This document shows, in pieces, positions 22,100 through 63,001 of a DNA stretch of 64,000 nucleotides. Origin of the DNA: Octopus sinensis. Its lineage: Eukaryota. A program made the position numbers and the translations under genes. The stretch spans positions 50,158,001-50,222,000 of the forward strand of contig NC_043012.1 in assembly GCF_006345805.1 (NCBI RefSeq). The letters are read 5' to 3'. The notes beneath the pieces are model-generated. The model had not been told where the DNA came from and made no database searches. It saw nothing but the letters and a program-made list of their open reading frames with translations. The first letter of the stretch is position 1, and each line of letters begins with the position of its first letter.

Positions 22100-23044
22100 T
22101 AATGCATAGAGTATTCATCAGATTTCAAATGATTATCTCACAGTTCAGTTCTTGACAACTATAATACCTCTTTCAACGCTCCAACAAGCTGAATTTTCAG
22201 AGTATGGTTTTCTCCAATCCGTATGCAACTTAAACATCACGGTTTGACAGGTGTACCGATATTCAGTAATTTGTTAACATTCATATGTTAGAAATATTTT
22301 TGAATACACATCATTAACTGGTAGTTATATTATTTTTTTTATGTTCGTTCAAAATAGGTTTGAACAGTTTAATAAACTGTTTTTCTTTAATCTTTCTTCC
22401 AATCTCACAGGTGCCATGTAGGTTGTGGAAAGAGAAAATGAGAAATATTTTTTAACCATATGTCTATATGTTCGCTCAATGGAATTCGGCGAACATTAGT
22501 TTTCTGGATTTGTTGTCTGTGGAAGCGAGAGCCTTCCCATAATGCATTCCCTGTCTTGCCTACTTGTAGTTCCCTGCAATTCGAACATTTAATGCAGTAG
22601 ATCAGATTTCCGTTTTTGCAGTACATATCTGATTTGTGAAAATCTATCCAATTTTTGTTCTAATTGATCTAACAGTATCCATGTATTGACACGCTCCCTC
22701 AAGTGTTATCATTACAATTGGATGCTATCAATGTTTTATCCTGTTTGTTCATGTTGAATTTTGCCTTTGTTAATAGATTTTTTAGGTTATGTGGTTGAGT
22801 TTTGCTTAATATAAGTGTTTGATTACTCTTTTACTCTTTATTTGTTTCAATCATTTGACTGTGGCCATGCTGGAGTATCACCTTTAGTCGAGCAAATCGA
22901 CCCCAAGACTTACTCTTGGTAAGCCTAGTACTTATTCTATAGGGCTATTTTGCCGAACCGCTAAGTTACGGGGACATAAGCACACCAGCATCGGTTGTCA
23001 AGCGATATTGGGGGGACAAACACAGACACACAAACATATACGCA

Positions 23045-23131
<87 letters not shown>

Positions 23132-24900
23132 CGGCAGGCTTCTTTCAGTTTCCGTCTACCAAATCCACTCACAAGGCTTTGGTTGGCCCTAGGATATAGT
23201 AGAAGACACTTGCCCAAGGTGCCACGCTGTGGGATTGAACCCGGAACCATGTGGTTGTAGTTATTATGATTGATTCTAGTTTCAGCTCATGAGCTGTGGC
23301 CATGCTGGGGCACCGCCATTTATGTTTTTTTTTTTTTTCACTTGGTTTTATGATTGGCTAATATGTTTTGTTAATGTTTAAAATGTTTTGGTGATGCTGA
23401 TTGTCTGTTACTAGAAATGGTGTTGTGTTCCTTTGATGGGTTTCCTCTTTTTCGTCCTGCTCTAAGTTGTTCTACAGGTATCGCTTTTGCTCGTTGTATT
23501 CTATTTTCTATAAGTAGGAGGTTAATTAGGCTTGAGCAGAAATCCGTTGAGTTCTATAAATCGTGTGTTAATGGTCATTTTCCTGGCTAGACAGTAAGGG
23601 ACGTTGCGTTTTATGTGTGTTGGGTGGCATGATCTGAAATTTAGCTAACGGTGTGTATCTGTGATTTTGTAATAAATATCAGCTGTGATTGTGGTTTTCT
23701 TTTTAAATACTATTATGTCAAGAAATGGTAACTGTGTCTTGTATATTCCTCCTGTGAATTTGAAATTTGGGTGTAAATTGTTGAGGAAAGAGCTGAATAG
23801 GAAACAATCATCAAGGTATCTTCTCCATGTGCCCTCTATATGTCTTTTACAGGTTTTTTAATATACAGGATTTGGTCCAAGTAACCCAATTCTGAGCTCA
23901 CGAAAACTGGAGCAAATCGCGTCCCCATTGTTGTGCCTCGAATTTGTTGGCAGATTTTTTCGGTTGAAAAGCAGTGTATTGCTTTCGAGGATAAGGCTGA
24001 CCGCGTCTTATCTGAAGGTTGAAATAAATCTAGTGGGGATCGCTTCTCTATGCATCTCGACTCAATATTTTATAGCAGTAAGTCTCAAATCATGTAGATT
24101 GTTCGAATATAAGTTTGTTACATAAACTCTAACAGTGAAGGGGATTATGTTGTTTTGGGCAGATGTGATATGAAATCGACGTCATCCCGAATGTAACTGG
24201 GTATGTGAGTACATAGTGGTTTTAGGATTATGTGAAAGATGTTGCTCCGACTATGTATAGGACAGGGTTGATCAGCTATATTAGGATTTAGTTTAAGGTC
24301 TTTTGTTTGTAGTAGTTTTATGTATTCACAACCTTCTTCCTATAATATTTTGTGCATTTCTTTTGACTTATGTATTCTGGGTAACTCACAGAATTTACTG
24401 GATTTAGAGTCAAAATATAATCCCTTACATTAGAAGTGGGGGAGTTATAATGTTATGAGACTAAATAATTGAGTTTCTTCATGATGCAGTGGTCAATATT
24501 CGAGGGTATTTCATAATAGAGCGTTATATCCTTTAAATGAGCATCAGCTAGATCCCGTTAATATACGGCATCTCGCTTGTTTGATGACAACTGTGCTGTC
24601 ATTTTTAAGATGTATAAGGGAAGACTTTTCTAGTTTTGAAATGTTTGGTTTAACGTTCATATTATGACTCACTGAAGATCTGAAAATGATATCAATGAAT
24701 TGATGTAGAAGTGTATTTGGTCCCTTTAGCGGGGTAAATTTAGAGTTATTTTCCGCCGAGGATTCGTCATTCTCATTATTTTCATTAGTAAAAAAAAGCT
24801 CTACAAATCTAAGATCCAGAAATCGAGGTGTAGGAAGAAAGTTAGCTTCGAGCAATCCGTAGTAAATATTAAAAAAATAAATCCAGGAATAATAATGGTT
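22100..24900 (-). mobile_element. Degenerate Penelope-like element (RT and GIY-YIG endonuclease), interrupted by a SINE
   Basis: NISKLEKSSLIHLKNDSTVVIKQA, KFCELPRIHKSK, GTTMGTRFAP, WRRYLDDCF (YLDD at 23807-23818), LNNLHPNFKFT, LPFLDI, HPTHIKRNVPY. GIY-YIG: NLIYCIKCSNCRELQVGKTGNALWEGSRFH. Confidence 0.9.
22823..23257 (-). mobile_element. Bipartite CORE-type tRNA SINE
   Basis: High identity to 57561-57963, with an internal (TACA)n(TA)n tract. Confidence 0.9.
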
Positions 24901-27639: not shown

Positions 27640-28032
27640 TGTTGTATTTAGGATTAGTCATTTTGCCAGTTTAGCCAATAAAAACACACGCACTATATAT
27701 TTGATGTTACTTTGCTTAAGCGTTATTTATTTTTTACATTAATCTTAATCTTATTTCGGCCAGAGTTTTGGCGTCACACTCCGGTGACCTCATCAGTGGT
27801 CCTTTGCTTTCTTCTCTCTCATTTGTGTGTCTCTCCTTACTAACGGCCAGCCATTTTGTATTTTGTATTCCTATTGTATGTGTCTTCGTTTGCGCTTGCG
27901 TATACTTCTATGTGTGTTTATGTTTAGCTAGTGTTTGTGTGTGGGGGGGGGAAGTGCCTGTAATATTTGTATGTCTTGTTTATATACGTTCGTGTAATTT
28001 GTTTTTTGTTTTGTTCATGTGTTTACACCTAC

Positions 28033-60327: not shown

Positions 60328-61113
60328 ATTTTACTTCTTTCACTGCGGCCATTCTGGAGCACTATCTTGAAAGCCTTTTAGTAGAATGAATCGACCCTCA
60401 GTACTTATTTCTTTTCTAAAACCTAGTACTTATTCTATCAGGATCTATTTGCCGAAACGTTAAGTTATGGAGACGTAAACACACCAAAATCTGTTGTGGA
60501 GTGGTTATGGTGGACAAACACTATCACAAAGATACCTATTTATATACTATTCTATGTTTTTCGAGATGAGGAACTATGTACACTATTTATAATAGATTGA
60601 TAGATATCCTCACCTTTTTTGCTATCATCACAACGTTTCGGCTGATGTGCTCTCCACTTTTAAGAAAATAGGAAATACTAGGTTTATAAGCTCTAACGTT
60701 CACTCTATAAATCCATGGGCATATAGCGTAGTGGATAAAAGCGGGGGCTACTAAACCTCAGATTCTAAGTTCAATTCCAGGCAGGGACTTGAAAAATAAT
60801 ATCAACAGAAAAATAACATCAGCAAAATGCCTTAGAAATGAAACAGTGTGCGACAAATAAACAGTTGGGATCGAAATTACACCAGAACACCTCATGTAGG
60901 CTGGAGAGCACACCAGCCGAAACGCTGTGATAACAACAATGTGAGGACACTCATCCGGGCGTCGTTCAGTTTCCGTCTACGAAATCCACTTACAAGGTTT
61001 TAGTTGGCCTGAGATTATAGTAGACAACACTTGCCAAAGTTACCACGCACTGGGACTGAACTCGGACATATATGGTTACGAAGCAAGGTTCTTACTACAC
61101 AACCATGCTTGCA
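60328..61113 (-). mobile_element. Old bipartite SINE split by an insertion (halves 60328-60540 and 60957-61113)
   Basis: 3' and 5' halves are recognisable on either side of the 60550-60955 insert. Confidence 0.8.
60550..60955 (+). mobile_element. Composite element: inverted partial duplicate, tRNA-like Pol III head and hammerhead-like 3' end
   Basis: A box TAGCGTAGTGG 60724-60734, B box GTTCAATTCC 60769-60778. CAC-CTCATGT-AGGCTGG..CCAGCC-GAAACGCT-GTG at 60888-60929. Inverted copy at 60604-60656. Confidence 0.7.
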
Positions 61114-61292: not shown

Positions 61293-62021
61293 TGTGAGTA
61301 TGTGTTTTTGTATACGTGTATGTGTGTATGTCCATTCAACACACAACACGATTCCAAACCAATGTTAAAGTAACCTTCATACGAAAAATAATGAGTTTTT
61401 AAAATAAACTCTTGTTGAGCAACATACTCTAATTCACAAATCAAACAATTTTCAAGAATCTCTGATCACGGAAAACCAAAATATAGAAGTCGCTGATTTG
61501 AAAGCACATAATTGAAATGGAAAAAACAACATCCTAAAAAGAGTCATTCTTGATATTCTAGATCACACACGCACACACACGCACACACACGCACACACAC
61601 ACACACACACACATACACACACACATACAGACACACACGCATGCACCCATGCACTCACACACCCACATTCACATATACACACATACACAACTGAGACCAT
61701 GCCTGAAGATTCACACAAGGGAAATATATAAATGTGTGTACGCATTTATAATGAATTTATTGCATAAAATATATATTTCCCATACTGAAATGAAACAAAA
61801 CATTGTTCGGGAGGGATTTGGTAATTTTATTCACAAGTTACACAATTTAGCTATTTTTACAACTTAATAAACATAAGTCTTTGTACACATACATACTATA
61901 TAACATACACATTACATCCATCTATCTATCTTTCTTTCTAATTTTATATATATATGAGTGTGTGTGCGTGTGAAAAAAGTCAGGGTAGAAAATGATAAAA
62001 TACTTTTATAAAAAACCTTTT

Positions 62022-62057
62022 CAGTACCGGTTTCAGTCATTGGGACTTTTTCAACTA
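62022..62057 (-). ncRNA. Minimal hammerhead motif, U3:A8 core variant
   Basis: TAG-TTGAAAA-AGTC CCAAT GACT-GAAA-CCGG-TA-CTG. Confidence 0.6.
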
Positions 62058-62855
62058 TATGTATGGAAAAAAAAATTAAATTTTCGAAAAATTAAAAGAA
62101 AAGTTTTTCAAAAGAATATTTGCATAGTTTTCAAAGACAAGAAGCATTTTCCTTGTTTCTGCCTGTCTCTGTCTCTCTTGTTTACTCTTGTGGGTTCGAG
62201 GTCGTCTTGAATTCTTGGCAAGGAAGTAGAAGAAGGAAAAGGATAAAGAAGAAGAAGAAGAAGAGAAGAAGAAGAAGAAGAAGAAGAAGAAGAAGAAAGA
62301 GGAGTGGGAGAAGAAGAAGAATGTGGGAGTGCCATGATAGTAGTAAGATGTTAAATGGTCAAGTGACCATTTAACATCATACTACTATCACAATAGCTGC
62401 ATTCCCTTCTCATTCTCCCTTCTCTTTGTCCGTCTTCAACCTCTCCGGCACCTCCTTCCTACCTTTACCACTATTGCTGTTTAGAATAACACCTACGCAA
62501 ATATTAAAAACAATACGTTCAAAAGAGATGTCTCAAGAATTCAATCACTACTACCATCCACAACAAGTCACTTTCAGGGCATTTGACCATTTAACATCTT
62601 ACTACTATCATGGCACTCCCGCATTCCCCTTCTTCACCTCCTCCTCCTCCTCCACCTTATTCTTCTTCCTCTTCTTCTCCTTCTTCTTCTTCCCTGCCAT
62701 GAATTCACAACGACCTCGAACCCACAAGAGTAAATAAGAGAGACAGAGCCAGGCAGAAACAAGGAAAATACCCCTTGTATTTGAATACTATGCAAATATT
62801 CTTTTAAAAATCTTTTCTTTTAATTTTTCCGAAATTTAATTGTTTTCCATGTTTA

Positions 62856-62891
62856 CAGTTGAAAAAGTCTCAATGACTGAAACTAGTACTG
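62856..62891 (+). ncRNA. Minimal hammerhead motif, U3:A8 core variant
   Basis: CAG-TTGAAAA-AGTC TCAAT GACT-GAAA-CTAG-TA-CTG. Confidence 0.62.
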
Positions 62892-63001
62892 AAATGTTTT
62901 TTATAAAATTATTTTAACAATTTTTACCATGACTTTTTTCCATATATATCAACTCGTGTGTTCCTTTTCAACCTTCTATATATATATATGCATATATATA
63001 T

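What the first reader, a model, noticed from the sequence alone, without database searches (positions are those of the whole stretch)
61973..62939. Paired hammerheads with a compensatory U3:A8 core and palindrome-preserving stem III
Seen: both arms of a foldback of about 970 bp carry TTGAAAA-AGTC(N5)GACT-GAAA-[CCGG or CTAG]-TA, closed by a 3-bp stem I. The core is CUGANGA with C3 to U and G8 to A in both copies. Established: positions 3 and 8 form a Watson-Crick pair in the active hammerhead, and U3:A8 swaps can retain activity. The two stem III tetramers differ at two bases yet both are palindromic, as needed for dimeric folding, although CpG decay could also produce CTAG. Inference: a ribozyme family that CUGANGA-based searches would miss.
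Basis: partly seen in the sequence, partly recalled or inferred. Interest (0 to 1): 0.72.

Follow-up and report, generated by a model that had tools for sequence, protein, structure and literature searches.

The report
Mirror-image Penelope transposon ends with hammerheads
This mirror-image repeat is two cut-off tail ends of a common Penelope-type jumping gene; each carries a predicted self-cutting RNA motif with a core letter swap that is already in print, and this worn copy is likely inert.

Summary
Both motifs are real, but they lie on opposite strands, facing outward. The foldback is a 5'-truncated, head-to-head pair of 3' ends (pseudo-LTRs) of a Neptune-type Penelope-like retrotransposon. 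Intact sister copies read hammerhead, ORF1, RT plus GIY-YIG, hammerhead, about 4.4 kb apart. U3:A8 is the family state: 2,781 genomic matches, 34 without A8, 2 with C3:G8. The 'palindrome-preserving' reading fails: CTAG is 3 of 455 copies, while non-palindromic CTGG and CCAG are 27 of the first 100, as CpG decay predicts. The two arms cannot make a double hammerhead; a read-through RNA is predicted to bury the sense motif in double-stranded RNA. Natural U3-A8 cores, palindromic helix III, dimer folding and opposite-strand pairs are all published for Penelope-like elements (PMC4209133; PMC3088659). Cleavage is untested. This scan noted the same kind of motif before elsewhere in this genome. Side lead: the young subfamily likely joins ORF1 and ORF2 by a -1 frameshift. 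New member of a known kind; low interest.

The parts
61972..62368 (-). Left arm: inverted, 5'-truncated copy of the element's 3' end (pLTR region), without the tail
   Evidence: ends against a (TG)n run at 61972
62364..62940 (+). Right arm: 5'-truncated 3'-UTR and pLTR of a Neptune-type Penelope-like element, including an internal ~220-nt duplicated segment that forms the foldback's 'spacer'
   Evidence: (D10); homologous to the 3' end of full-length elements L048-L055
62941..62977 (+). About 37-nt tail extension, present at this end only, followed by (TA)n
   Evidence: seen in 14 of 29 sister copies; in the intact element it is the sequence that follows the 5' pLTR
62856..62891 (+). Minimal type I hammerhead motif, U3 (62859):A8 (62864), stem II A10.1-U11.1, helix III CTAG (62883-62886, likely double CpG decay of CCGG), predicted cleavage after GUA at 62888
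62022..62057 (-). Minimal type I hammerhead motif, U3 (62054):A8 (62049), helix III CCGG (62027-62030, family state), stem I with one U.G pair, predicted cleavage between 62025 and 62024
62337..62390 (.). Head-to-head junction palindrome; the arms share 5 bases (62364-62368) that come from a short hairpin present in both internal repeats
   Evidence: palindromes at inverted PLE junctions described in PMC3846280
62978..63095 (.). (TA)n-rich microsatellite at the insertion's right end, likely the target site
   Evidence: 25 of 29 sister copies have a dinucleotide run within about 100 nt of the end (no background rate was computed and the genome is rich in such runs)

Best explanation
The foldback is one old, truncated, head-to-head insertion of the 3' end (pseudo-LTR) of a Neptune-type Penelope-like retrotransposon, and each arm carries that family's hammerhead motif with a fixed U3:A8 core, which likely cuts only as a dimer in intact elements and is likely inert here. 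Shown: family identity, position of the motif in the pLTR of RT plus GIY-YIG elements, U3:A8 and CCGG as founder states, neutral decay of old copies, opposite-strand geometry. Inferred: the element's own RT and endonuclease made the insertion at a (TA)n site; a template switch or foldback at the 5-base hairpin shared by two internal repeats made the inverted second arm; in intact tandem elements two same-sense motifs about 4.4 kb apart (or two RNAs) pair their ACCGGU palindromes into a 6-bp helix III and cut after GUA, slowly and perhaps with help from the element's protein, to process the long precursor RNA. CTAG arose by decay of the CpG in CCGG after insertion.
For: Family size: 3,008 first-look candidates, 2,781 motif matches vs 0 control. 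Upstream of the motif, longer old copies carry a CX4CX2C linker and GIY-YIG-type ORF (L004). A young sister subfamily (231 of 274 aligned pLTR bases alike) has full-length copies with two same-sense motifs 4,366-4,419 nt apart in 4 of the 10 loci (L048, L049, L050, L055), a 784-aa ORF with RVT_1 (E 3.5e-08, above cut-off) and GIY-YIG (E 3.8e-04, 21.1 bits, just under the 22.6 cut-off), and 513 relatives at E <= 1e-50, most listed ones with RT and many with GIY-YIG domains. Head-to-head pairs are the rule: 22 of 26 neighbouring motif pairs within 6 kb among the first 100 young matches; 4 such pairs among the first 100 old matches. Position 8 is not A in 34 of 2,781; C3:G8 in 2. Stem II 10.1-11.1 is A-U in the old and G-C in the young subfamily. 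Old copies vary 26 of 725 in core plus stems vs 193 of 5,357 in flanks (Fisher p = 1.0), and 11 of 116 in the CpG tetramer. Predicted monomer hammerhead fold is unstable (+0.9 to +5.5 kcal/mol), dimer is favourable (-18.5 to -21.1 vs -13.2 for two monomers, young motif). Literature: PMC4209133, PMC8557442, PMC3846280, PMC11167929.
Against: No cleavage or expression data: runs found were contigs only and none is on record as RNA. Helix I is only 3 bp, shorter than the 4-5 bp given for most metazoan min-HHRs, though 2 bp is reported for D. virilis. The old subfamily has A10.1-U11.1 where G10.1-C11.1 is called highly conserved. Selection on the fold rests on one covarying pair between two subfamilies; an unchanged 11-nt core at 84% background identity is not significant alone, and C11.1-G12 is itself a CpG. 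The GIY-YIG Pfam score is below the curated cut-off. Clade was assigned by motifs, not by a tree with named references. The 29 old copies were the best hits to this arm, not a random sample. In the Anolis element, hammerhead cleavage was not needed for insertion in vitro.
Confidence: 0.9

Rival explanations
1. One reading: the two arms are a functional pair of hammerheads kept under selection at this locus, with helix III palindromes preserved for dimer folding.
For: Both copies keep the full core and a palindromic tetramer; CTAG can form its own 6-bp duplex, -4.8 kcal/mol.
Against: Opposite strands; heteroduplex -0.2 kcal/mol; 94% of the sense motif paired with the antisense arm and stem II probability 0.0 in the read-through fold. 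CTAG 3 of 455. Old copies decay at the flank rate. An intact 11-nt core is expected in about 7 of 10 old copies at the measured 2.8% per site (9 of 319).
Confidence: 0.03
2. The motif is a catalytically dead relic: the pLTR was copied thousands of times with a hammerhead-like sequence that no longer cuts, and U3:A8 is a frozen accident.
For: Very short helix I; low in vitro activity of PLE min-HHRs; HHR mutants did not block insertion in vitro; Naiads thrive without canonical HHRs.
Against: Both 3 and 8 changed so as to keep the pair; the 10.1-11.1 pair differs on both sides between subfamilies; the most recent subfamily keeps the whole motif in 1,712 exact matches; a second, unrelated family in this genome also has U3:A8; U3-A8 ribozymes are stated to be active in vitro (PMC3088659).
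Confidence: 0.2
3. The foldback is a unit of its own: a non-autonomous MITE-like or retrozyme-like element with terminal inverted repeats that moves as a 970-bp hairpin.
For: Long inverted arms with motifs near both ends.
Against: Sister loci share the 3' end but start at many different 5' points and run into an endonuclease ORF; inverted pairs have spacings from 250 to 4,898 nt; none of the 29 other loci repeats this junction.
Confidence: 0.03

Closest known systems
[quoted passage not shown]
   Same: Type I topology, place in the pLTR, tandem copies some kb apart around an RT ORF, opposite-strand pairs 100-700 bp apart, palindromic 15.2-16.2 region, U3-A8 core, predicted dimer.
   Different: Helix II is 4 bp (7-8 bp in Schistosoma), helix I 3 bp (4-5 bp), no extra nucleotide between 9 and 10.1, A10.1-U11.1 in the old subfamily; copies here are homogeneous (1,712 exact matches) rather than highly variable.
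Neptune-clade EN+ Penelope-like elements (Craig et al. 2021, PMC8557442, passages; Arkhipova et al. 2013, PMC3846280, passages)
   Same: RT followed by CX2-5CxxC linker and C-terminal GIY-YIG; 5' truncation; partial tandems; inverted 5'-truncated copy; 30-40-bp tail at one end; microsatellite targets; palindrome at the head-to-head junction.
   Different: Intact copies here have a 411-aa ORF1 overlapping the RT ORF in the -1 frame, whereas canonical EN+ PLEs are described as single-ORF; a Neptune with two non-overlapping ORFs is reported in killifish (PMC12602865, passages), and Craig's Fig. 1 legend mentions a frameshifted ORF1 without my being able to see for which clade.
Natural hammerhead core variants with U3-A8 (Perreault et al. 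2011, PMC3088659, passages)
   Same: Same covariation of the 3-8 pair; stated there to be active in vitro.
   Different: Those were scattered examples found by a descriptor search; here it is the fixed state of a multi-thousand-copy retroelement family.
Small dimer-cleaving hammerheads of Penelope-like retrotransposons (Lunse, Weinberg and Breaker, RNA Biol 14:1499; only the title and a review's summary seen; paper not held)
   Same: Short stem III, PLE association, cleavage as dimers.
   Different: Could not check whether this family or U3-A8 is among their representatives.

Membership tests
Type I hammerhead ribozyme (minimal, dimer-type) | Core N3-UGA-N7-N8-A9 ... G12-A13-A14 with a 3-8 Watson-Crick pair | tested here: met
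   U3:A8 in both arms and in the family; C3:G8 is replaced by a published variant
Type I hammerhead ribozyme (minimal, dimer-type) | A15.1-U16.1 pair and NUH cleavage triplet | tested here: met
   GUA in both arms
Type I hammerhead ribozyme (minimal, dimer-type) | Helices I and II formed, with covariation | tested here: inconclusive
   3-bp helix I, 4-bp helix II; one two-sided change (10.1-11.1) between subfamilies; predicted stem II probability about 0.33 in the arm alone
Type I hammerhead ribozyme (minimal, dimer-type) | Short palindromic helix III allowing a dimer | tested here: met
   CCGG in 70 of first 100 old and 98 of first 100 young matches; duplex -8.3 kcal/mol
Type I hammerhead ribozyme (minimal, dimer-type) | Self-cleavage | not testable with these tools
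   Only contig-type runs, none on record as RNA
Rfam hammerhead families | Score at or above a gathering threshold | tested here: not met
   0 matches in the window
EN+ Penelope-like element | RT with C-terminal GIY-YIG endonuclease in the family | tested here: met
   RVT_1 above cut-off, GIY-YIG just below cut-off; relatives carry both. The window copy itself holds no ORF (truncated).
EN+ Penelope-like element | pLTRs from partial tandems, each with a hammerhead | tested here: met
   L048, L049, L050, L055; the two direct pLTRs of L050 are 270 of 270 alike
EN+ Penelope-like element | Inverted 5'-truncated copy and one-sided 30-40-bp tail | tested here: met
   Window geometry; 22 of 26 close pairs head-to-head; tail in 14 of 29
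Neptune clade | CX2-5CxxC linker between RT and EN | tested here: met
   CX4CX2C read in L004 and from the DNA of L050 near 6300; my regular expression missed it because an overlapping pattern consumed it. Also found in Nematis, so not exclusive.
Neptune clade | Placement in an RT phylogeny with named references | not tested
   No named PLE references were at hand; one search hits are nearly all unnamed
Non-LTR retrozyme | Non-coding head-to-tail repeats of about 150-400 nt with a type I hammerhead | tested here: not met
   This family runs into an RT-EN ORF; one 421-nt direct pair was seen (L043)

The most novel reading that the evidence does not exclude
The young sister subfamily (1,712 exact ribozyme copies, identical pLTRs, open ORFs) is a currently active endonuclease-bearing Penelope-like element that makes its RT by a -1 ribosomal frameshift from a 411-aa ORF1 at a T-TTT-TTA heptamer with no evident downstream structure, and processes its RNA with a U3:A8 hammerhead that has only a 3-bp helix I and needs a partner or the element's protein to cut. 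That would be a retrovirus-like expression strategy in a clade described as single-ORF, and a ready system to test whether PLE hammerheads matter.
Probability: 0.4. Interest if true: 0.45.

Novelty: new member of a known kind. Interest (0 to 1): 0.2.

Why it matters
As it stands, little: the U3-A8 core, the palindromic helix III and opposite-strand pairs of hammerheads in Penelope-like elements are in print. The practical point holds that literal CUGANGA searches undercount these motifs; two U3:A8 families in this genome give 2,781 and 274 matches. The young, intact subfamily would be a good test bed for the open question of what hammerheads do in PLE replication, and its likely ORF1-ORF2 frameshift deserves a look of its own.

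Tried and rejected
Rfam scan at gathering threshold: 0 matches. Pfam on the broken L004 endonuclease fragment: nothing significant. Palindrome-preserving selection on helix III: rejected by allele counts. In-cis dimer of the two arms: rejected by strand geometry and folding. Post-insertion selection on old copies: none seen. A C3:G8 sister subfamily within the motif pattern: not found, 2 of 2,781. Expression and in vivo cleavage: no RNA holder listed; runs laid were contigs and cannot show ends; a joint skipping 61971-62976 in X17 had only 20 letters on its short side in low-complexity DNA and was not taken as an empty site. Downstream stimulator for the frameshift: none by plain folding, -2.9 kcal/mol over 90 nt; pseudoknots were not modelled. 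RT or endonuclease beside the second U3:A8 family: no tblastn hit in 15 of 15 loci. Papers not held: Lunse et al., Przybilski and Hammann 2007. Searches for a printed slippery frameshift in Neptune PLEs found only the figure legend in PMC8557442; a search for octopus plus Penelope plus hammerhead found no description of this family; subscription journals and supplements were not seen, so absence from print is not shown.

Full report
Observation. The window is AT-rich, microsatellite-rich DNA from a 2.72-Gb genome, G000. A descriptor scan of both strands of the whole window, free at positions 3, 7 and 8, found two minimal type I hammerheads, both in the finding: + 62856-62891 with CTAG and - 62057-62022 with CCGG. 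Both have U3 and A8. The left copy has a U.G as the outer pair of the 3-bp stem I. The arms are 236 of 267 aligned bases alike. The motifs are on opposite strands and face outward. Rfam found nothing at gathering scores.

Family. The right arm has 3,008 first-look candidates in G000. In 29 sister loci the 3' end is shared and the 5' ends differ. Longer copies run into an ORF with a CX4CX2C linker and a GIY-YIG-type segment (L004). That fragment led to a young sister subfamily. Of the 10 loci fetched, four (L048, L049, L050, L055) hold two same-sense motifs 4,366-4,419 nt apart around long ORFs. The 784-aa ORF of L050 scores RVT_1 at E 3.5e-08 and GIY-YIG at E 3.8e-04, the latter just under Pfam's cut-off; 513 relatives score E <= 1e-50. 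The window's arm and the young pLTR are 231 of 274 aligned bases alike. So the foldback is made of pLTRs of an EN+ Penelope-like element; the Cys linker points to Neptune (or Nematis) by the definitions in PMC8557442. No tree with named references was built.

The foldback. The left arm (61972-62368, -) and the right arm (62364-62977, +) are both 5'-truncated. They meet at 5 shared bases of a short hairpin that stands in both of the element's internal ~220-nt repeats. Only the right arm has the ~37-nt tail, then (TA)n; the tail is in 14 of 29 sister copies. Among the first 100 young matches, 22 of 26 neighbouring pairs within 6 kb are head-to-head, 3 direct and 1 tail-to-tail. Inverted truncated copies, a one-sided 30-40-bp tail and junction palindromes are described PLE features (PMC8557442; PMC3846280; passages read).

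Positions 3 and 8. Old subfamily pattern: 455 exact matches; of the first 100 listed, 95 U3:A8, 4 U3:G8, 1 C3:A8, 0 C3:G8 (hand count). Young pattern: 1,712 matches; of the first 100, 99 U3:A8 and 1 C3:A8 (hand count). General pattern: 2,781 matches, 0 for the reversed control; 34 lack A8, of which 22 U3:G8 and 2 C3:G8 (hand count). U3:A8 is therefore the founder state. It is compensatory relative to the textbook core and to canonical-core motifs of other families in this genome (L033, L051), but no covariation at 3-8 is seen inside this family. Stem II 10.1-11.1 is A-U in the old subfamily (28 and 27 of 29) and G-C in the young one: one two-sided change, a hint of selection in the active lineage.

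Helix III. Of the first 100 old matches: CCGG 70, CCAG 14, CTGG 13, CGGG 2, CAGG 1, CTAG 0 (hand count). CTAG is 3 of 455 genome-wide, one being this copy. Young matches: 98 of 100 CCGG. In 29 old copies the tetramer varies at 11 of 116 cells, the core plus stems at 26 of 725 and the flanks at 193 of 5,357 (p = 1.0 for core plus stems vs flanks). These copies were the best hits, not a random draw. The pattern is CpG decay with no sign of palindrome rescue.

Folding. The monomer hammerhead fold is predicted unstable (+0.9 to +5.5 kcal/mol); ACCGGU pairs with itself at -8.3, ACUAGU at -4.8, and the two with each other at -0.2. For the young motif a dimer (-18.5 as a double hammerhead, -21.1 with stem I open) beats two monomers (-13.2). 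A + strand transcript of the whole locus pairs 94% of the sense motif with the antisense arm and abolishes stem II. These are nearest-neighbour predictions, not activity.

Mechanism. Shown: identity, position, allele counts, geometry. Inferred: target-primed insertion at (TA)n by the family's RT-EN; template switch at the hairpin giving the inverted arm; in intact tandems, dimer folding of two same-sense motifs and cleavage after GUA (about 124 nt upstream of the ORF1 ATG in L050) to process precursor RNA, slowly and perhaps protein-assisted as for the Anolis element (PMC11167929, passages), where cleavage was not needed for insertion in vitro. The window copy lacks ORFs and a same-sense partner and is likely inert. 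RNA evidence could not be had: no listed run is on record as RNA and all were contigs.

What is known. Cervera and De la Pena 2014 (PMC4209133; parts 1-2 of 4 read) report the U3-A8 covariation in Schistosoma PLE min-HHRs, about 1,300 hits with a dedicated descriptor, dual motifs on opposite strands 100-700 bp apart, palindromic 15.2-16.2 regions, and low dimer activity. Perreault et al. 2011 (PMC3088659; passages) report natural U3-A8 and state that such ribozymes are active in vitro. A review (PMC6765202; passages) summarises the dimer work of Lunse et al., which was not held. Other papers seen in part: bioRxiv 2026.07.22.740005 (part 1 of 5), PMC7229834, PMC7151607, PMC3884650, PMC6431247, PMC12602865 (passages). 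No supplements were read; they may list this family. Earlier notes of this scan record U3-A8 motifs elsewhere in this genome; they are unchecked leads, not support.

Side findings. The young element has a 411-aa ORF1 (ATG at L050:3183) overlapping the RT ORF in the -1 frame; a T-TTT-TTA heptamer at L050:4379 sits in the ORF1 frame and is the same in 10 of 10 junctions found in 8 loci; contigs of four runs cross it without a gap (table 8); the RT frame's first Met is residue 68. A -1 frameshift is likely but untested, and no stimulator was predicted. A second, unrelated U3:A8 family with a 6-bp stem I occurs in ~360-nt repeats (274 matches; 98 of first 100 U3:A8).

Verdict. Observation confirmed; interpretation partly supported. 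New member of a known kind. Interest 0.2.

Noticed in passing
L050:3183-6709 (also L048, L049, L051-L055): Young Penelope-like subfamily has ORF1 (411 aa) overlapping the RT-GIY-YIG ORF in the -1 frame, with a T-TTT-TTA heptamer at L050:4379 in the right frame, identical in 10 of 10 junctions; likely programmed frameshift; no stable downstream fold.
   Followed up: partly
L043:6093 and L058-L072: Second, unrelated U3:A8 type I hammerhead family with 6-bp stem I and CGCG helix III, in ~360-nt direct and inverted repeats, no RT hit nearby; retrozyme-like; 274 exact matches. Earlier scan notes describe it.
   Followed up: partly
window 60560-60950: Worn inverted pair of another PLE-type end with a near-canonical hammerhead (+ strand near 60895-60930; decayed partner near 60635-60660).
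   Followed up: no
window 22462-24813, - strand: Decayed Penelope-like RT and endonuclease fragments, 33-44% identical to the L050 protein.
   Followed up: no
window near 27790, - strand: CTGATGAG...GAAA stretch that may be another hammerhead; it did not pass the descriptor.
   Followed up: no
L043:2218 and 2639, - strand: Two old-subfamily motifs in direct orientation 421 nt apart, the kind of short tandem that could fold as a double hammerhead.
   Followed up: no
window 62364-62576 vs 62577-62690: The old subfamily's 3'-UTR carries an internal ~220-nt duplication that the young subfamily's 3'-UTR does not show in the same form.
   Followed up: partly
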